A stretch of DNA of 5,033 nucleotides from a virus (taxonomy: Duplodnaviria > Heunggongvirae > Uroviricota > Caudoviricetes), in IMG/VR virus record IMGVR_UViG_2698536647_000008. One strand, given 5' to 3'. Position 1 is the first letter of the stretch; the number at the start of each line of letters is the position of its first letter. The translations under genes and the position numbers were made by a program. Under the pieces are notes generated by a model. The model saw nothing but the letters and a program-made list of their open reading frames with translations. It did no database searches and was not told the origin of the DNA. Below are positions 1 through 5,033 of the stretch, piece after piece.

Positions 1-432
1 TTAATTAAAGTCAATTCCTGACAAGTCTAATCCGAGTGAGCAGTTCAAAATTTTATCCATTGCATTACTGGATAATACTACCTTTAGCTTTGCAACTTTT
101 GCAGGTGAATCCAAGGTACTATTCTTAGTTATTAGTGTATAAAAATCAGAAACTGGTATACTTTCAATTGTATGATCATACCCTTTATATGCAGCATAAT
201 TGAATACAGTGTCACCATTCATATCGTAAGCATGTGATTCAAGATCAATAAAAAATTTATCAGAACTAGTTATTGCAACTGGCTTACCATCTTTATAGAT
301 TTTAACAGTACCTGCATGGCCCGATGCATTAATATTAACAGTGTACTTTTGCTCACAGGAATATGTTACAGATTTTGCCATAGTAGAAAAAGAAAGCAGC
401 ATAACAATACAAGGTACAAGAACCTTTATCAT
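1..432 (-). CDS. Hypothetical secreted (periplasmic) protein, 143 aa, with N-terminal Sec-type signal peptide
   Basis: Complete ORF: ATG at 432..430, TAA at 3..1. N-terminus MIKVLVPCIVMLLSFSTMA-KS has a hydrophobic core and an AXA-like cleavage motif; no C-terminal TM segment. GGAG sits 7 nt upstream of the ATG (minus-strand reading TAA-ACCTATTGGAGTACTTAC-ATG). Last gene of the minus-strand operon, 18 nt after the holin-like gene. No family recognised from memory. Confidence 0.55.
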   Translation of the reverse strand: MIKVLVPCIVMLLSFSTMAKSVTYSCEQKYTVNINASGHAGTVKIYKDGKPVAITSSDKFFIDLESHAYDMNGDTVFNYAAYKGYDHTIESIPVSDFYTLITKNSTLDSPAKVAKLKVVLSSNAMDKILNCSLGLDLSGIDFN

Positions 433-450
433 GTAAGTACTCCAATAGGT

Positions 451-741
451 TTAGCTCCCACCAATCAAGATTATCAGTACTTTCCATATTTCATCAAGTG
501 GAACAATGGGGAGTACCACACCACATAAGGCCAGTACTGGCACAATGACGTAGTTCCATAGAATGATGAACGTCAGTACCCATCCTAAGCCCTGTCGCCA
601 AGTGAAGCCCTTACGCGTTTCTTCAAGTGTGATCTGGTTCTGTTCATGGCTGTTCTGTGCGTCCAGCTCTTGCTTACTTTGTTCTTTCTTCTGGAAGAAA
701 CCTACTCCAGTTTTGATTAAATCAATTATCATTCCAATCAT
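451..741 (-). CDS. Putative phage holin, 3-TM type (resembles the 'holin of 3 TMs' family, PF11351-like)
   Basis: 96 aa. Hydrophilic N-terminal ~45 aa, then hydrophobic segments. The motifs TWRQGLGWV, LPIVPLDEIW and a C-terminal ILIGG match, from memory, the conserved WRPFxGWV / LPxLxxxEL / LLGLGG pattern of that holin family. ATG at 741..739 overlaps the upstream TGA (740..738) as ATGA. Family assignment is by recall, not by alignment. Confidence 0.6.
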   Translation of the reverse strand: MIGMIIDLIKTGVGFFQKKEQSKQELDAQNSHEQNQITLEETRKGFTWRQGLGWVLTFIILWNYVIVPVLALCGVVLPIVPLDEIWKVLIILIGGS

Positions 742-1049
742 TCAATGATCCCCACGCAATACACCCAAAAGTGTTTTCCCTTAACGAATAGTTTTTTATG
801 TTCGATTACGTACACATCCATCTGGTCACCTTGTAGTGACCATGTAAGTACTGAACCGTCCGTTATATTTTGTTTTTTCTCATAGCAAACATTCATAAAA
901 TGCTCGATATTAATCTGTTTACTCTTTAGTACCTTCTTGAACTTATTACCAAGAAAGCATTTATGAATTGGCATACTATTAGCCTCTGGTGTATTACCAT
1001 CGAGTTTAATCTCACTGGTTAGTTCACCATAATGTTCATCAAAATTCAT
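738..1049 (-). CDS. Hypothetical protein, 103 aa
   Basis: ORF with ATG at 1049..1047 overlapping the stop of the upstream gene (ATGA, 1049..1046), and its own stop overlapping the holin start. Called on coupling and operon context only; no motif recognised. Confidence 0.5.
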   Translation of the reverse strand: MNFDEHYGELTSEIKLDGNTPEANSMPIHKCFLGNKFKKVLKSKQINIEHFMNVCYEKKQNITDGSVLTWSLQGDQMDVYVIEHKKLFVKGKHFWVYCVGIIE

Positions 1050-1606
1050 CTTGTTACCTTGAATGTTCCCTGTATACCACTCATGACTAACATCACACCA
1101 TTATTCACTTCCTGATAGAAATCATAAATTAGTTTACGGCGTTTACTTTCCCGTAGGCCGATTACACGCTTTTGTTTTTTCTTTTGAGTAGTATCTATTA
1201 ATCGTTCTTTTCCGTTTTTACCTTTGACTATCTTGTAACGACCAGAGGCCAAATTTTTCTTTAGTCCACTAATGTTACCCTGCTTCGTTAGTCTTGCTTT
1301 CGAAGTAGGCACAAATTTATCAATGGCCTTTTGTTCAACCAGTACACCATATAAGTACTGTGCCTGAACATCTTTGACCATGATTGTAGCTGTGACCCCA
1401 CTACCCCGTTTTTTATAAAAGAATAGAATTGATCGTTGAGTGAAAGGTACTGCACCTTTGTCTACGGCATTGTTCATATCTGCCTGTACTTTCATAGATA
1501 ATACTCTTGAACGCTTAATAATTTCATCTTGGAACTGTTTACCTAACTTCGTTCCTGTTGTTTTTATATAGTTCGTGACATTATCTATACCCGTTATTCT
1601 TGTCAT
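1046..1606 (-). CDS. Hypothetical basic (Lys/Arg-rich) protein, 186 aa
   Basis: ATG at 1606..1604, 4 nt after the upstream TAA (1613..1611), with GAGGT about 6 nt upstream overlapping that stop. Very basic C-terminal half (KGKNGKERLIDTTQKKKQKRVIGLRESKRRK), which may mean nucleic-acid binding. No family recognised. Confidence 0.55.
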   Translation of the reverse strand: MTRITGIDNVTNYIKTTGTKLGKQFQDEIIKRSRVLSMKVQADMNNAVDKGAVPFTQRSILFFYKKRGSGVTATIMVKDVQAQYLYGVLVEQKAIDKFVPTSKARLTKQGNISGLKKNLASGRYKIVKGKNGKERLIDTTQKKKQKRVIGLRESKRRKLIYDFYQEVNNGVMLVMSGIQGTFKVTR

Positions 1607-1610
1607 ATAT

Positions 1611-2060
1611 TTACCTCACACCCAATAAATCAGTTAAATATTGCAGTACTTTAAATAAATCCAAACGGTTTTTTGGTAATCGTGCCTTACACATTATTGC
1701 CTTATTTAAACAGTCGGGATGTAAACCAAAGTAGCTAATCAATGCTGTTTCTAAAATCGTTGCCTCTGCGTCAGATTTAACACAGTACAAAATCTTTTTA
1801 GTGTATGGCATTCCGGCTTCAATCATTTCATTAACGCACTTACTACTACCGGTATAATCAGGCCAGTTCGATTCAACTGAAGTAGACTTTAAATTCTTTA
1901 TGTCGCGTACTTTTTTATAGATTTGCTTCTTACCGAAATAGTACTCGCCAGTCTCTGGAAACTGAATAATGTAGATAAACGAAACGTAATTCCCATCTGT
2001 TACTTCTGACATATTCCACATATTAATATCGAACATCTCCCATGCTTTATTAACTCTCAC
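1611..2060 (-). CDS. Hypothetical protein, 149 aa; possible degenerate GIY-YIG nuclease-like domain (speculative)
   Basis: First gene of the minus-strand operon. The ORF begins with GTG at 2060..2058, with AGGGA about 8 nt upstream; the first in-frame ATG (2036..2034) has no spacer to a GGGAG. Segment SFIYIIQFPETGEYYFGKK shows an IY...(about 10 aa)...YxFG spacing reminiscent of GIY-(10)-YIG, followed by Arg and Glu at roughly expected distances. The nuclease call is weak. Confidence 0.5.
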   Translation of the reverse strand: MRVNKAWEMFDINMWNMSEVTDGNYVSFIYIIQFPETGEYYFGKKQIYKKVRDIKNLKSTSVESNWPDYTGSSKCVNEMIEAGMPYTKKILYCVKSDAEATILETALISYFGLHPDCLNKAIMCKARLPKNRLDLFKVLQYLTDLLGVR

Positions 2061-2100
2061 AATAAATATCCCTATATAGATTTATTATAGGTATTTATTA
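2061..2100. promoter_or_regulatory. Divergent AT-rich intergenic region between the minus-strand operon and the plus-strand lysozyme gene
   Basis: 40 bp, almost entirely A/T (aataaatatccctatatagatttattataggtatttatta). The minus strand carries a consensus TATAAT (2089..2084) upstream of the GTG at 2060; the plus strand has AATAAATA (2061..2068), one mismatch from the T4 late-promoter box TATAAATA, and AGGT 8 nt before the ATG at 2101. No convincing -35. Low-complexity AT sequence makes chance matches likely. Confidence 0.3.
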
Positions 2101-2550
2101 ATGAGTAAACTAAAAGACAGATTAAAAGAATATGAAGGTACTATCGCTTATCAAACAAAATTGAAGTACTTTCACGATAACAAATTTTGGACATACAAAG
2201 ATTCACTAGAATTTGAAACCATCGGCTACGGTCATTTACTACATGTTGGTGAAAAGTATTCAGATGGTATTACTATTGAGCAAGCGGAAAGCCTACTAGA
2301 CCAAGATATATTAATTGCAGTGCATAACGTCGAAACACTCAATATCTGGCTACCTGACGAGTGGAAAGATTTTCTTGTGATAATGATGTTCCAGTTAGGT
2401 TTAGGCGGGGTACAGAAATTCAAAAAGATGTTAGTAGCCCTTAAAGCAAAAGATTACCCGGAAGCCATCAGACAGGCTAAAGATTCATTATGGTATAAAC
2501 AAACACCTAATCGTGTTGATGCAATGATTGCAGTACTAACCAACAAATAA
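2101..2550 (+). CDS. Phage endolysin, T4-lysozyme-like (glycoside hydrolase family 24 muramidase)
   Basis: 149 aa, ATG 2101, TAA 2548..2550. Recognisable matches to T4 lysozyme: LKEYEG (catalytic Glu region), YKDSLEFETIGYGHLL against YKDTEGYYTIGIGHLL (Asp/Thr catalytic region), MMFQLGLGGVQKF against MVFQMGETGVAGF, and WYKQTPNRVDAMI against WYNQTPNRAKRVI. No N-terminal TM or SAR segment, so it looks like a cytoplasmic, holin-dependent endolysin. Confidence 0.85.
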   Translation: MSKLKDRLKEYEGTIAYQTKLKYFHDNKFWTYKDSLEFETIGYGHLLHVGEKYSDGITIEQAESLLDQDILIAVHNVETLNIWLPDEWKDFLVIMMFQLGLGGVQKFKKMLVALKAKDYPEAIRQAKDSLWYKQTPNRVDAMIAVLTNK

Positions 2551-2553
2551 CAA

Positions 2554-2584
2554 AAAGGCGATAGCATTATGTACTATCGCCTTT
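2554..2584. terminator. Bidirectional rho-independent terminator candidate between convergent genes
   Basis: Perfect 11-bp inverted repeat AAAGGCGATAG (2554..2564) / CTATCGCCTTT (2574..2584) with a 9-nt loop. T-rich on the plus strand downstream (ctttcttcttattgttt) and A-rich upstream (caaaaa, giving a U-tract for the minus-strand transcript). It sits between the lysozyme stop (2550) and the stop of the minus-strand 88-aa gene (2589). Confidence 0.6.
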
Positions 2585-2588
2585 CTTC

Positions 2589-2855
2589 TTATTGTTTCTG
2601 TTCAAGAATGGTAATGATTTTTTCAATTTTCACATCCAGATCATGGATCTGGTTTTCAAGTTTAGTTAAAGCATCACGCATCTTATTCTGATCAGCTTCA
2701 ATACGCACCATACTACTTTCCTGTACTGCTTGTTTAGTTTCCAGTTCTGAAACACGTGTAAGTAGTCCATCAGTATCTTTTGTATTGTCGCGGAATACAG
2801 TGTACAGAAGTACACAGCCAGAAATAATAAGAGCTAATATTGTACCAATGTCCAT
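2589..2855 (-). CDS. Small membrane-anchored coiled-coil protein, 88 aa (i-spanin-like architecture; function unknown)
   Basis: ATG at 2855..2853, TAA at 2591..2589. One N-terminal hydrophobic segment (IGTILALIISGCVLLYTVF), then a charged, heptad-like region (ELETKQAVQESSMVRIEADQNKMRDALTKLENQIHDLDVKIEKII). No lipoprotein partner was found embedded in the one alternative frame I translated by hand. Confidence 0.5.
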   Translation of the reverse strand: MDIGTILALIISGCVLLYTVFRDNTKDTDGLLTRVSELETKQAVQESSMVRIEADQNKMRDALTKLENQIHDLDVKIEKIITILEQKQ

Positions 2856-2895
2856 ATTATCTCGCTTATTATTATTCTTATAATGATATTTATCG

Positions 2896-3552
2896 TTAAT
2901 ATCCGGTGAAAGTAGCTAAAGCGATTTGAAAACCATTGTTGCCCATTGCCTGACGATATGTTTTCTGGTTCTTTGAAACGTACTGCAAGCTGAATGAAGT
3001 ACTGCTATTACGTCGAATAACTATTCCCGAATAACCGATTGTTTCACCATCATCACTTAAGTTGCCCGGACATTGTGACCAACAAAACCAGGGATTAGCA
3101 ACAGGGCTTGTTACTGTGATTGCAGTACTCAAATCCGTAGCAGCAGGTACAGTTAAGAAACCTTGTATACGGGGCATGGTAGCCGCCGATGCAGCAGACC
3201 ATATCAAAGTACCGGAAGCATTGAACACATCGAGATAACCAGACGTAGGTGTTGCAGTGTGCGTACTCGTCATGAATCGCCCTATCCCCGGCTGGAACAA
3301 CTCAGCACCGGGAAAACACCAGCCACCATCTTTCTGTATCTGAAACCAGTACTGCGTAGTGTTCCTGTTCACGATAGTTGCAAGTGGCAAGAAGCCAAGA
3401 GCACCACCATTACCAAAAGCACACGTAAAGCCAGTGTAATACCCCTGATCCGTCAGTGTACCCATTGCCTTAACAGCACCTGTGAGAATTGACTTGTTAG
3501 TACTGTCAATCGTCAGAGCACCCGCAGAATTATAAACTTCAAAACCTGACAT
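2896..3552 (-). CDS. Hypothetical tail-fibre-associated protein, about 218 aa
   Basis: The tracked ORF (2896..3597) begins with TTG and would overlap the upstream gene by 44 nt. I prefer the ATG at 3552..3550, which lies 1 nt after the upstream TAA (3556..3554; minus strand reads TAATATG) and gives MSGFEVYNSAGALTID... Its N-terminus resembles that of the preceding 98-aa ORF, with a further internal copy (DVFNASGTLIW). Located directly downstream of the tail-fibre gene. Confidence 0.5.
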   Translation of the reverse strand: MSGFEVYNSAGALTIDSTNKSILTGAVKAMGTLTDQGYYTGFTCAFGNGGALGFLPLATIVNRNTTQYWFQIQKDGGWCFPGAELFQPGIGRFMTSTHTATPTSGYLDVFNASGTLIWSAASAATMPRIQGFLTVPAATDLSTAITVTSPVANPWFCWSQCPGNLSDDGETIGYSGIVIRRNSSTSFSLQYVSKNQKTYRQAMGNNGFQIALATFTGY

Positions 3553-3553
3553 A

Positions 3554-3850
3554 TTACACCGTCCACTTATATACGTTGAAACTATACGTACCAGCAAACG
3601 GTGATCCCGTTGGTAGATAAATGATAGTCATTGAACCATTATTACAAATAACAGACCACTCATTAAAAACATCCGTAGATGGTGCGTAATAGGCAATCCA
3701 CCCTGTTGTTTTCATTCCGGGCACAGTGACGGTATAACTTGATGCAGTAGTAGCAGTAATTGAGTAAGTACCCATGTACCGCATATTATAATCACCGAGA
3801 TCTACTACTAATACCCCTGCACTATTCCAGCATTGTAATCCTTGTGCCAT
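3554..3850 (-). CDS. Hypothetical tail-fibre-associated protein, 98 aa
   Basis: ATG at 3850..3848 with a good RBS (AAAGGATTTAAA-ATG), TAA at 3556..3554. N-terminus GLQCWNSAGVLVVD parallels GFEVYNSAGALTID of the next gene. Thr/Ser/Tyr-rich composition is typical of beta-rich fibre or adhesin proteins. Confidence 0.5.
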   Translation of the reverse strand: MAQGLQCWNSAGVLVVDLGDYNMRYMGTYSITATTASSYTVTVPGMKTTGWIAYYAPSTDVFNEWSVICNNGSMTIIYLPTGSPFAGTYSFNVYKWTV

Positions 3851-3869
3851 TTTAAATCCTTTAAGTTAT

Positions 3870-3886
3870 AGGGGAAGTCATCCCCT
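3870..3886. other. Short GC-rich hairpin in the intergenic region downstream of the tail-fibre gene
   Basis: AGGGGA (3870..3875) / TCCCCT (3881..3886), 6-bp stem with 5-nt loop. A T-rich run follows on the plus strand (tgttgtttatt), not on the minus (coding) strand, so it is not a convincing terminator for the tail-fibre transcript. It may be a stability or attenuation element, or an antisense terminator. Confidence 0.3.
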
Positions 3887-3895
3887 TGTTGTTTA

Positions 3896-4783
<888 letters not shown>

Positions 4784-4802
4784 TCAGTCAGAGGTGACTC
4801 AC

Positions 4803-5033
4803 ATGACAAAAACAGTATCAACCAGTAAAAAACCCCGTAAACAGCATTCGCCTGAATTTCGCAGTGAAGCCCTGAAGCTTGCTGAACGCATCGGTGTTAC
4901 TGCCGCAGCCCGTGAACTCAGCCTGTATGAATCACAGCTCTACAACTGGCGCAGTAAACAGCAAAATCAGCAGACGTCTTCTGAACGTGAACTGGAGATG
5001 TCTACCGAGATTGCACGTCTCAAACGCCAGCTG
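4803..5033 (+). CDS. insE: IS3 transposase OrfA (InsE), N-terminal 77 codons; truncated by the window edge
   Basis: ATG at 4803 preceded by GAGGTGA with a 5-nt spacer. Translation MTKTVSTSKKPRKQHSPEFRSEALKLAERIGVTAAARELSLYESQLYNWRSKQQNQQTSSERELEMSTEIARLKRQL matches the E. coli IS3 OrfA N-terminus as I recall it, including the helix-turn-helix region. No stop before the window ends. Confidence 0.93.
   Translation, partial: MTKTVSTSKKPRKQHSPEFRSEALKLAERIGVTAAARELSLYESQLYNWRSKQQNQQTSSERELEMSTEIARLKRQL

What the first reader, a model, noticed from the sequence alone, without database searches (positions are those of the whole stretch)
2896..3850. Two adjacent ORFs downstream of the tail-fibre gene share a repeated N-terminal motif
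The 98-aa product (GLQCWNSAGVLVVD) and the ~218-aa product (GFEVYNSAGALTID) start with clearly related sequences, and the larger protein has a third internal copy (DVFNASGTLIW). Neither looks like the tail-fibre assembly chaperones I can recall (lambda Tfa, T4 gp38). A duplicated module directly after a receptor-binding gene suggests a tip adhesin or fibre chaperone family that has diversified by duplication, which is relevant to host range.
Basis: seen in the sequence. Interest (0 to 1): 0.5.

Follow-up and report, generated by a model that had tools for sequence, protein, structure and literature searches.

The report
Tail-tip adaptor and receptor-binding protein pair
The two small genes after the tail-tip fibre gene of this E. 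coli prophage most likely encode the adaptor and the receptor-binding protein that cap the fibre and decide which bacteria the phage can infect. This gene trio is already known from other phages, but the short motif the two proteins share had not been described in the papers I read.

Summary
ORF-A (98 aa, 3554-3850, minus) and ORF-B (218 aa, 2896-3552, minus) share a 14-residue N-terminal motif, G-h-x-h-[WYF]-[ND]-x-x-G-x-L-x-h-D. ORF-B has a weaker internal copy at residues 106-119. Sequence similarity does not extend beyond the motif.

In 78 of 80 viral contigs the order is J-like fibre, ORF-A homologue, ORF-B homologue. N4-like podoviruses carry the same trio. In phage DEV it was shown to be a fibre trimer, an adaptor (gp55) and a receptor-binding protein (gp54).

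The three motif copies and the last 10 residues of J are the best conserved blocks of the module, from E. coli to Acinetobacter phages. I conclude that this is a new member of a known module.

The new idea is that the motif is the constant docking element, with three hairpins for three J chains. This is inferred, not shown.

In this genome IS3 splits the J gene, so the module is probably inactive.

The parts
3896..4739 (-). 3' fragment (about 281 codons) of a J-like central tail-fibre / tail-tip gene. The upstream part of the gene is cut off by IS3.
   Evidence: Pfam Phage_Tail_Tip E 2e-21 and PHROG tail-fibre families. The window is 99.7% identical over 1-4739 to L010, where the gene is an intact 1067 codons.
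3899..3952 (-). C-terminal 18 residues of [19 protein letters not shown]. This is the proposed docking hairpin of the fibre tip.
   Evidence: The last 10 residues are the most conserved block of the J tip in 57 distinct J-A-B triples (0.90). Acinetobacter phages Presley and XC38 end in the same YDDNN-x-LRVRMGLW. Its resemblance to the A/B motif ranks top but is not significant (P 0.12).
3870..3886 (.). 6-bp inverted repeat (AGGGGA-5 nt-TCCCCT) in the 45-nt spacer between J and ORF-A.
   Evidence: The T-run lies on the plus strand only, so the repeat is not a classical terminator for the minus-strand operon.
3554..3850 (-). ORF-A, 98 aa. Predicted small adaptor subunit of the tail tip. No Pfam family; PHROG 7961.
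3800..3841 (-). Motif copy 1: ORF-A residues 4-17, GLQCWNSAGVLVVD.
   Evidence: Residues 1-8 are invariant or nearly so in the family. The ORF-B-derived matrix scores 30.9 here with 0 of 20,000 shuffles reaching it. Predicted beta-hairpin, E6-8 and E14-17.
2896..3552 (-). ORF-B, 218 aa. Predicted receptor-binding protein. Pfam DUF8377 (PF28254); PHROG 4524.
3505..3546 (-). Motif copy 2: ORF-B residues 3-16, GFEVYNSAGALTID.
   Evidence: hhalign against the ORF-A family gives P 3e-5. Most conserved block of ORF-B (0.83). Predicted hairpin, E5-7 and E13-16.
3196..3237 (-). Motif copy 3: ORF-B residues 106-119, YLDVFNASGTLIWS. It heads the second half of the protein.
   Evidence: The block 101-120 is highly conserved (0.79). 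The equivalent position is found in VL1_57 (115), phCDa_91 (101) and P0216 (202).
2589..2855 (-). 88-aa gene with an N-terminal membrane helix and a coiled coil, downstream on the same strand with no terminator-like site in between, so probably co-transcribed. Function unknown.
   Evidence: A homologue lies directly downstream of the ORF-B homologue in 43 of 80 loci; 44 of 80 loci have a homologue. It is absent from HK639, Drexlerviridae and Schitoviridae versions.
2552..2586 (-). Terminator-like hairpin that would end the J / ORF-A / ORF-B / 88-aa transcription unit.
   Evidence: 15-bp stem followed by a T-run.
4740..5033 (.). End of an IS3-family insertion sequence that interrupts the J gene.
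   Evidence: 98-99% identity to IS3 copies in thousands of E. coli genomes. The breakpoint was placed by comparison with L010. The transposase lies between the two J fragments in L006 and L008.

Best explanation
ORF-A and ORF-B are the two distal subunits of the central tail fibre of a siphovirus-type prophage. After assembly, the trimeric C-terminal tip of the J-like protein is capped by ORF-A and ORF-B, probably one copy of each as modelled for the phage DEV module. ORF-A is a 98-aa adaptor. ORF-B is a 218-aa member of Pfam DUF8377.

ORF-B carries the variable surface that binds an outer-membrane protein of the host. By family membership this is most plausibly the TonB-dependent transporter YncD. 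ORF-A holds ORF-B on the fibre and may contribute to receptor contact.

It is a beta-hairpin at the start of ORF-A, at the start of ORF-B and at the start of the second half of ORF-B. I propose that these three hairpins are the docking elements that engage the conserved C-terminal hairpins of the three J chains.

Shown here:
- family membership of ORF-B;
- conserved gene order;
- fold similarity to a solved phage receptor-binding protein;
- conservation pattern of the motif blocks.

Taken from the literature:
- virion location, essentiality, 3:1:1 model and receptor-binding role of the equivalent proteins of phage DEV;
- YncD dependence of IsaakIselin and IME347.

Inferred:
- the roles of ORF-A and ORF-B in this prophage;
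- the receptor;
- the hairpin-docking mechanism.

In this genome IS3 splits the J gene, so the module is probably not expressed as a working tail tip.
For: **Family and receptor link**
- A protein identical to ORF-B, and its homologues, carry PF28254 / DUF8377.
- ORF-B is 39.3% identical over 100% of its length to bas10_0025 of IsaakIselin and to the IME347 protein.
- Both phages need YncD, and their receptor specificity maps to the locus next to gpJ (PMC8594841; preprint 10.64898/2026.04.02.716166).

**Fold**

**Gene order**
- 78 of 80 IMG/VR loci have the order J C-terminal domain, ORF-A homologue, ORF-B homologue on one strand.
- The genes are tightly packed: 1 nt between ORF-A and ORF-B here and overlapping in HK639.

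**Experimental precedent**
- Litunavirus VL1 has a 429-aa J-like fibre followed by overlapping 99-aa and 223-aa genes.
- In DEV these are gp56, gp55 and gp54. All three are essential.
- gp54 is a virion protein, and mutations in it suppress an LptD loop deletion.
- AlphaFold3 places one gp55 and one gp54 on the gp56 trimer tip (PMC12892993).

**Sequence link to Schitoviridae**
- ORF-B hits Acinetobacter phages XC38 (E 3e-8) and Presley (E 2e-5) by tblastn.
- Both have the same three-gene order.
- Foldseek hits the phCDa 220-aa protein (E 8e-6) and a 237-aa protein of Pseudomonas phage vB_Pae_AM.P2 (E 1.6e-5).

**Motif as the constant interface**
- The most conserved 10-residue windows in 57 distinct triples are J's last 10 residues (0.90), ORF-A 1-10 (0.82), ORF-B 1-10 (0.83) and ORF-B 101-120 (0.79).
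- Most other windows score 0.40-0.65; ORF-B 151-170 also reaches 0.72-0.76.
- These four blocks are close to identical in Presley, although the ORF-B homologue is only about 26% identical overall.
- A motif matrix trained only on the enterobacterial families finds VL1_58 position 4 and VL1_57 position 115 with P<1/3000.

**No export signals**
- Neither protein has a signal peptide, lipobox or membrane helix (sequence). This fits virion proteins made in the cytoplasm.
Against: - No experiment exists on this prophage or on any DUF8377 protein.
- The YncD link rests on two phages whose proteins are 39% identical to ORF-B. The variable loops differ, so the receptor could be another outer-membrane protein.
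- I did not verify which gene of the YncD locus the preprint treats as the receptor-binding protein.
- Profile comparison of ORF-A and ORF-B with the Litunavirus proteins is only marginal (P 0.005-0.03). With Rtp44 it is not significant. The link to DEV and to the LptD-type proteins therefore rests on fold, gene order and the motif.
- The resemblance of the J C-terminal hairpin to the motif is not significant (P 0.12).
- No complex model could be made, so the docking role of the hairpins is untested.
- In phage PJNS034 the pair lies among replication genes, with no J C-terminal domain within 5 kb.
- In Drexlerviridae the pair is convergent with J rather than co-directional.
Confidence: 0.7

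Rival explanations
1. The two proteins are assembly chaperones for the J-like fibre, like lambda Tfa or T4 gp38/gp57. They would help the fibre tip fold and then leave, or only ORF-A would do so.
For: - They lie directly after a fibre gene, which is where chaperones are usually encoded.
- ORF-A is small, and for DEV gp55 the evidence that it is a structural protein was called uncertain.
Against: - No match to Caudo_TAP, gp38 or other chaperone families in Pfam, PHROGs or NCBIfam.
- DEV gp54 was found in virions, and LIT1 orthologues of gp54 and gp55 are reported as structural proteins.
- The ORF-B fold matches a protein that binds its receptor directly.
- The variable/constant pattern fits a surface-exposed binder.
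Confidence: 0.08
2. The motif is a case of convergence, not duplication. ORF-A and the two halves of ORF-B are unrelated domains that each evolved the same short hairpin because they bind equivalent sites on a threefold-symmetric partner.
For: - Sequence similarity stops at 11-14 residues.
- The ORF-A profile finds no DUF8377 protein among 1.8 billion representatives.
Against: - All three segments are beta-rich units of about 100 residues that begin with the hairpin.
- hhalign repeatedly pairs one module with a different module of a relative, over 47-63 columns. Examples are ORF-A with My1_129 215-277 (P 0.0015) and ORF-B N-terminus with VL1_57 115-161.
- Single-chain proteins of about 310 residues carry copies about 100 residues apart.
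Confidence: 0.25
3. The roles are the other way round or shared. ORF-A is the main receptor contact and ORF-B is the scaffold, or both contact the receptor.
For: - After its first 27 residues, ORF-A is the more variable of the two proteins (0.40-0.47 in most windows).
- The DEV study suggests that gp55 may touch LptD loop 9.
Against: - DEV suppressor mutations all map to gp54, none to gp55.
- ORF-B, not ORF-A, aligns with most of the LptD-binding protein (134 residues).
- The preprint defines the YncD-associated family by full-length identity above 30%. ORF-B meets this at 39%. ORF-A meets it only marginally, at 28-32% to the IME347 and related proteins.
Confidence: 0.1
4. They are accessory lysogen genes: superinfection exclusion proteins or other cargo placed after the tail genes, like lambda lom or cor.
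For: - Receptor loci next to gpJ often also carry an exclusion gene, such as Rtp45.
- The third gene of IsaakIselin, bas10_0024, has a signal peptide.
Against: - Neither ORF-A nor ORF-B has a signal peptide, lipobox or membrane segment.
- The pair is equally conserved in strictly lytic phages (Drexlerviridae, Schitoviridae).
- In DEV both genes are essential for plaque formation.
Confidence: 0.03

Closest known systems
Receptor-binding fibre of Pseudomonas phage DEV (Litunavirus): gp56 fibre, gp55 adaptor, gp54 receptor-binding protein (mBio 2026, PMC12892993)
   Same: - A J-like fibre whose C-terminus ends in the same type of hairpin (TIKVFDQAGKLRVHIG in VL1).
- It is followed by tightly coupled genes of about 100 and about 220 codons.
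- The motif is present at the start of the small protein and at position 115 of the large one.
- Foldseek matches ORF-B to the phCDa 220-aa protein, which occupies the gp54 position, and to a 237-aa protein of Pseudomonas phage vB_Pae_AM.P2.
   Different: - The host phage is a podovirus, and the fibre is only 429 aa and sits beside a tail plug.
- The receptor is LptD.
- Profile-level sequence similarity to ORF-A and ORF-B is marginal.
- The Litunavirus proteins carry no DUF8377 annotation.
YncD-associated receptor locus of Drexlerviridae (IsaakIselin bas10_0026 / 0025 / 0024; IME347)
   Same: - ORF-B is 39% identical over its full length, and ORF-A is 28-32% identical to the small proteins of IME347 and related Drexlerviridae.
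- The same two-protein layout and the same motifs are present.
- The locus is linked to gpJ and correlates with receptor use.
   Different: - In Drexlerviridae the pair is convergent with J and is followed by a secreted 110-aa protein.
- Here the pair is co-directional with J and is followed by an 88-aa membrane / coiled-coil protein.
- No experiment assigns the individual proteins' roles.
LptD-binding single-chain proteins Rtp44 / Oekolampad RBP (PDB 9RPT; annotated DUF6453 in one record)
   Same: - It is encoded next to gpJ.
- It has three conserved blocks about 100 residues apart (1-20, about 121-140, about 211-240).
- Those blocks coincide with the segments lacking cryo-EM density in the free protein (1-25, 113-142, 206-234).
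   Different: - It is one chain of 311-321 residues instead of 98 + 218.
- There is no significant sequence similarity.
- The motif scan is only marginal (position 210, P 0.015).
- The receptor is different.
- The preprint calls the LptD and YncD families unrelated.
T5 pb4 / pb5
   Same: A monomeric receptor-binding protein sits on the tip of a trimeric central fibre. The T5-like phage My1 has a pb4 with the same C-terminal domain (57% identity to the window's J tip), followed by a 314-aa protein that Foldseek links to ORF-B.
   Different: T5 pb5 is a 640-aa protein of a different family. No adaptor is known.

Membership tests
Pfam PF28254 (DUF8377) | Match to the family model over the whole protein | tested here: met
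   The protein identical to ORF-B (P0025) and all 120 listed homologues carry PF28254 in the precomputed tables. The family is named DUF8377. It could not be re-run because the local Pfam copy lacks the model.
PHROG 4524 (ORF-B) and PHROG 7961 (ORF-A) | Profile match | tested here: met
   E 1.3e-58 over 1-217 for ORF-B and E 6.4e-16 over 1-87 for ORF-A. Both families are of unknown function.
YncD-associated receptor-binding family of Drexlerviridae and relatives | [quoted passage not shown] | tested here: met
   39.3% identity over residues 1-218 to IsaakIselin and IME347.
YncD-associated receptor-binding family of Drexlerviridae and relatives | Encoded at the variable locus next to gpJ | tested here: met
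   Directly downstream of the J-like gene. This holds in 78 of 80 related loci.
YncD-associated receptor-binding family of Drexlerviridae and relatives | Infection depends on YncD | not testable with these tools
   Needs plating on a yncD mutant with a phage that carries this cassette.
DEV-type receptor-binding fibre module (gp56-gp55-gp54) | J-like fibre followed by translationally coupled genes of about 100 and about 220 codons | tested here: met
   45-nt and 1-nt spacers here. The same layout is seen in VL1, phCDa, Presley and XC38.
DEV-type receptor-binding fibre module (gp56-gp55-gp54) | Homology of the large subunit to gp54 and of the small subunit to gp55 | tested here: inconclusive
   - Foldseek E 8e-6 (phCDa) and 1.6e-5 (vB_Pae_AM.P2).
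- tblastn to Schitoviridae XC38 (3e-8) and Presley (2e-5).
- The motif is found at the equivalent positions.
- However, hhalign against the Litunavirus proteins gives only P 0.005-0.03.
DEV-type receptor-binding fibre module (gp56-gp55-gp54) | Both proteins present in the virion on the fibre tip, 3:1:1 | not testable with these tools
There are no proteomic data for this prophage.
LptD-type single-chain receptor-binding proteins (Rtp44 / Oekolampad; DUF6453) | Sequence homology to the family | tested here: not met
   hhalign of the ORF-A and ORF-B families against Rtp44 gives P 0.02-0.19 with short alignments only. There is no PDB sequence hit.
LptD-type single-chain receptor-binding proteins (Rtp44 / Oekolampad; DUF6453) | Same fold | tested here: inconclusive
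   [not shown]
Tail-fibre assembly chaperones (lambda Tfa / Caudo_TAP, T4 gp38) | Match to the family models | tested here: not met
   No such family appears in Pfam, PHROGs or NCBIfam at E up to 1.
Cor / Llp / Rtp45-type superinfection exclusion proteins | Signal peptide with lipobox, small exported protein | tested here: not met
   ORF-A starts MAQGLQCWNSAG and ORF-B starts MSGFEVYNSAG. There is no hydrophobic leader and no lipobox cysteine. Compare Rtp45, [20 protein letters not shown].

The most novel reading that the evidence does not exclude
The three conserved hairpins are three equivalent pegs that each engage the C-terminal hairpin of one chain of the J trimer. One is on ORF-A and two are on ORF-B.

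On this reading, a 1:1 ORF-A/ORF-B heterodimer is a pseudo-trimer that resolves the three-to-one symmetry mismatch between a trimeric fibre and a single receptor-binding surface.

The single-chain proteins of about 310 residues at the same locus would be the fused form of the same three-module design. These include the LptD type (Rtp44 and the Oekolampad RBP), My1 gp129 and the metagenomic P0216.

Receptor-binding families now called unrelated would then share one docking code with the J tip. That code could be used to move receptor specificities between siphoviruses and N4-like podoviruses.
Probability: 0.35. Interest if true: 0.65.

Novelty: new member of a known kind. Interest (0 to 1): 0.42.

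Why it matters
The variable locus next to gpJ decides which outer-membrane protein small siphoviruses, and some N4-like podoviruses, use as their terminal receptor. It is a prime target for predicting and engineering host range.

This window adds a temperate, E. coli-resident version of the two-protein form. It also links three things that the papers I read treat separately:
- the YncD-type locus of T1-like phages;
- Pfam DUF8377;
- the gp55/gp54 pair of phage DEV.

The repeated hairpin gives a concrete, testable candidate for the constant interface between fibre and receptor-binding proteins. If it is the docking element, it marks where a chimeric junction should be placed when swapping receptor-binding proteins. 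It would also explain how one or two asymmetric proteins sit on a trimer.

Tried and rejected
- **Cassette swap at window 2809.** E. coli AREA_C483 matches the window only up to 2809. This turned out to be an ISSen4 insertion in that strain.
- **hmmsearch with a 17-column motif model.** It gave unusable domain scores. I replaced it with position-matrix scans and shuffles.
- **J C-terminal hairpin as a fourth copy of the motif.** It ranks first or second of up to 1054 positions, but P is 0.12-0.3. I kept it only as a lead.
- **Sequence link to LptD-type proteins.** hhalign against Rtp44 was negative. P0216 has no match in PDB sequences or in phage genomes.
- **Deeper profile for Litunavirus gp54.** The search found only one cluster, so no profile-profile test was possible.
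- **T5 pb4 "hairpin legs" contacting pb5.** I recalled this from memory. The paper shows that the legs belong to pb3, so I dropped it.
- **Bulb-type lectin (three-repeat beta-prism).** One Foldseek hit carries that name. The QxDxNxVxY signature is absent and the models are sandwiches, so I did not pursue it.
- **Long repetitive proteins in the ORF-A profile search** (P0165, P0223, P0225). These are unrelated repeat proteins.
Full report
**What is in the window.**
- All relevant genes are on the minus strand.
- From 4739 down to 3896 runs the 3' part of a J-like central tail-fibre gene (Pfam Phage_Tail_Tip, E 2e-21; PHROG tail-fibre families).
- Bases 4740-5033 are the end of an IS3 element.
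- The window is 100% identical to two E. coli assemblies in which an IS3 transposase separates a 793-codon J fragment from this 285-codon ORF. It is 99.7% identical over 1-4739 to an assembly with an intact 1067-codon J.
- After a 45-nt spacer comes ORF-A (3554-3850, 98 aa). One base after its stop comes ORF-B (2896-3552, 218 aa).
- The longer TTG form of ORF-B is not supported by the family, which uniformly starts at MSGFEV.
- An 88-aa membrane / coiled-coil gene follows (2589-2855). A terminator-like hairpin lies at 2552-2586.
- The prophage sits next to mipA/yeaE.

**Checking the observation.**
- BLASTP of the two proteins aligns only the N-termini (E 0.028). The two halves of ORF-B do not align.
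- With family alignments (22 ORF-A homologues, 117 ORF-B homologues), hhalign gave the following:
  - ORF-A 4-17 against ORF-B 3-16: P 3e-5.
  - ORF-A 5-15 against ORF-B 107-117: P 0.011.
  - ORF-B 4-14 against ORF-B 107-117: P 0.003.
- A position matrix from the ORF-B N-terminal motif scores 30.9 at ORF-A position 4. None of 20,000 shuffles reached this.
- The ORF-A matrix puts its two best hits in ORF-B at positions 106 and 3 (P 0.01 and 0.03). In the 117 family members the best and second-best hits are almost always the N-terminus and position 102-106.
- So the motif is real and lies in three places, with the third copy weaker.
- It is only a motif. An ORF-A profile searched against 1.8 billion representative proteins returned 115 hits, nearly all 90-105 residues long, and no ORF-B-type protein.

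**What the proteins are.**
- ORF-B is a member of Pfam DUF8377 and PHROG 4524. ORF-A has no Pfam family and falls in PHROG 7961. Neither matches NCBIfam nor any PDB sequence.
- In phage genomes, ORF-B has full-length homologues (34-45% identity) in 59 records. These include lambdoid HK639, many Drexlerviridae of Escherichia and Klebsiella, Cronobacter phages and Acinetobacter phages. ORF-A homologues are found beside them.
- In HK639 the order is host-specificity protein, gp24 (100 aa), gp25 (213 aa), with overlapping stops and starts.
- In IsaakIselin the pair, plus a secreted 110-aa protein, lies convergent with the J-like gene.
- IsaakIselin and IME347 depend on YncD. The BASEL study matched alleles of this locus to receptor use (PMC8594841).
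[quoted passage not shown] ORF-B meets this criterion at 39.3% identity and 100% coverage.

**Structure.**
- AlphaFold2 with the family alignments gave confident all-beta models: ORF-A pLDDT 83.8, and ORF-B pLDDT 89.1 with pTM 0.83.
- In each model the motif is a hairpin: strands 6-8 / 14-17 in ORF-A, and 5-7 / 13-16 and 109-110 / 116-118 in ORF-B. Each hairpin heads a beta-rich unit of about 100 residues. The N-terminal 20-30 residues have the lowest confidence.
- Foldseek against predicted viral structures found uncharacterised proteins of 218-286 residues from Acinetobacter and Pseudomonas phages, and a 314-residue protein of the T5-like phage My1.

**The link to a characterised module.**
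- The last 120 residues of J match 716 phage records. These include lambdoid and T1-like siphoviruses, My1 pb4, and the short fibres of N4-like podoviruses.
- Downstream gene layouts are:
  - Litunavirus VL1: a 429-aa fibre followed by overlapping 99-aa and 223-aa genes.
  - phCDa: 107 and 220 aa.
  - Presley: 106 and 224 aa. XC38: 134 and 218 aa.
  - My1: a single 314-aa gene.
- The Litunavirus trio is the gp56-gp55-gp54 operon of phage DEV (PMC12892993).
  - All three genes are essential.
  - gp54 is a virion protein, and mutations in it restore growth on an LptD loop mutant.
  - AlphaFold3 (ipTM 0.8), docked into an 8.5 Å map, places one gp55 and one gp54 on the C-terminal tip of the gp56 trimer.
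  - The authors call gp55 an adaptor and gp54 the receptor-binding protein.
- VL1_57 has V85 and N186, two of the four DEV gp54 residues named in that study. This fits orthology.
- ORF-B hits the XC38 and Presley proteins directly by tblastn (E 3e-8 and 2e-5).
- Profile comparison with the Litunavirus proteins is only marginal. No deeper profile could be built.

**Gene order in numbers.**
- Of 80 IMG/VR loci that encode an ORF-B relative (43-99% identity), 78 have an ORF-A family member immediately upstream.
- The same 78 have the J C-terminal domain on the same strand. The median distance from J end to ORF-B start is 309 nt, which is the length of ORF-A.
- One exception among isolated phages is PJNS034. 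There the pair lies among replication genes with no J tip within 5 kb.

**What the motif is for.**
- In 57 distinct J-A-B triples, the most conserved 10-residue windows are J's last ten residues [10 protein letters not shown] (0.90), ORF-A 1-10 (0.82), ORF-B 1-10 (0.83) and ORF-B 101-120 (0.79).
- ORF-B 151-170 is also well conserved (0.72-0.76). Most other windows score 0.40-0.65.
- The same blocks survive between this E. coli prophage and the Acinetobacter podovirus Presley, although the ORF-B homologue is only about 26% identical overall:
  - J tip: ...[14 protein letters not shown]
  - small protein: MSQGLQCFDENGKSVVD
  - large protein: MSGFEVRN... and SGYLDVYDEQGELLWSANSA
- A motif matrix trained only on the enterobacterial families gave the following:
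  - Litunavirus small protein (VL1_58), position 4: P<1/3000.
  - Litunavirus large protein (VL1_57), position 115: P<1/3000.
  - phCDa_91, position 101: P 0.004.
  - Metagenomic 313-aa protein P0216, positions 4 and 202: P<1/3000.
- The constant parts of the system are therefore the fibre's C-terminal hairpin and the three hairpins of the cap. The rest varies, as expected for a receptor-binding surface.
- I infer that the hairpins form the assembly interface. This is not shown.

**A wider pattern, less secure.**
- I aligned eight LptD-type single-chain proteins: Rtp44, OzMSK, slur05, ESh4, Tin1, CY1, Bas86_16 and MLP3. Their best conserved blocks lie at 1-20, about 121-140 and about 211-240.
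- Each block has a G-h-x-h-x-[DN] start, and the blocks are spaced about 100 residues apart.
- The methods of the 9RPT paper state that residues 1-25, 113-142 and 206-234 had to be modelled because they were missing from the map. These are three segments at the same spacing, and they are disordered when the protein is free of the tail.
- Black et al. also noted that the invariant residues map to the base of the protein, away from LptD.
- This fits a three-peg docking design, fused in one chain there and split 1 + 2 here.
- Against this, sequence comparison of the ORF-A and ORF-B families with Rtp44 is not significant, and the motif scan is marginal (position 210, P 0.015).
- None of the papers I read mentions a repeated hairpin or a pseudo-trimer.

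**Rivals.**
- *Chaperones.* No chaperone family is matched, and the DEV and LIT1 data point to virion proteins.
- *Exclusion proteins.* Neither protein has an export signal, and the pair is conserved in lytic phages.
- *Swapped or shared receptor contact.* This remains possible, since ORF-A is variable after residue 27.
- *Duplication or convergence.* Whether the three modules arose by duplication or converged on one docking site is open. The cross-module hhalign pairings over 47-63 columns lean towards duplication.

**Verdict.**
- The reading as a tip adhesin relevant to host range is supported. The chaperone reading is not.
- The pair is a new, temperate member of a known module: fibre tip, adaptor and receptor-binding protein. 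The module is catalogued as DUF8377 and PHROGs 4524 / 7961 and is tied to YncD use in T1-like phages.
- The shared hairpin is a detail I did not find described. It gives a testable model for how the cap docks on the trimer.
- In this particular genome IS3 has split J, so the module is most likely a remnant.

Noticed in passing
window 4740-5033 (and L006 7886-9048): An IS3-family element is inserted in the J-like gene. It splits the gene into a 793-codon and a 285-codon piece. The TTG-started 285-aa ORF at 3896-4753 is therefore an artefact of the junction. Related strains carry further IS copies in the same prophage (ISSen4, IS5), so this is a decaying prophage next to mipA.
   Followed up: yes
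window 2589-2855 (minus) and 2552-2586: An 88-aa protein with one N-terminal membrane helix and a long coiled coil lies downstream of ORF-B, with no terminator-like site between them, and is followed by a strong terminator-like hairpin. A homologue lies directly downstream of the ORF-B homologue in 43 of 80 related loci (44 loci have a homologue) but not in HK639, T1-like or N4-like phages. It has weak holin / spanin-like PHROG hits only. It could be a lysis or an exclusion protein.
   Followed up: partly
window 1611-2060 (minus) and 2101-2550 (plus): A GIY-YIG SegE-like gene (PF19835 in the precomputed tables) lies back to back with a phage lysozyme gene. This is a possible homing endonuclease inside the prophage's late region.
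   Followed up: no
L003 9071-9377 (E. coli 14EC007, NZ_CP024131.1): RefSeq annotates no gene between the tail-tip gene and the DUF8377 gene. An intact ORF-A homologue (MAQGLQCWDASGRLIVD...) is encoded there, so the small subunit is missed by the annotation.
   Followed up: partly
window 3870-3886: A perfect 6-bp inverted repeat sits in the J / ORF-A spacer. Presley has an annotated terminator at the same place between its tail protein and the small gene. An attenuator here could lower the amount of cap proteins relative to the fibre.
   Followed up: no
P0216 (313 aa, metagenome) and P0185 (242 aa): P0216 starts like ORF-A (hhalign P 6e-9) and has a second strong motif copy at 202, so it looks like a single-chain form of the cap. 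P0185 is a J C-terminus read through into an ORF-A-like sequence. It is either a natural fusion or a frameshift in a short contig.
   Followed up: partly
L005 4995-5947 (Escherichia phage PJNS034): A 96-aa plus 221-aa pair with the same motifs lies between DNA polymerase and exonuclease genes. A non-coding stretch of about 900 bp lies upstream, and no J tip domain is found within 5 kb. This is an exception to the usual gene order.
   Followed up: partly
L015 6753-7688 (Rtp44) and L098-L104: The three best conserved blocks of LptD-type receptor-binding proteins coincide with the three segments that lack density in the 9RPT cryo-EM structure. The same family also occurs as 343-344-aa proteins directly after the fibre gene in 76-kb E. 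coli podoviruses (Bas86, MLP3).
   Followed up: partly
L002 5729-6061 (IsaakIselin bas10_0024): The third gene of the YncD-type locus encodes a 110-aa protein with a cleavable-looking signal peptide. It is a candidate superinfection exclusion factor acting on YncD from the periplasm, by analogy with Rtp45 and Llp.
   Followed up: no
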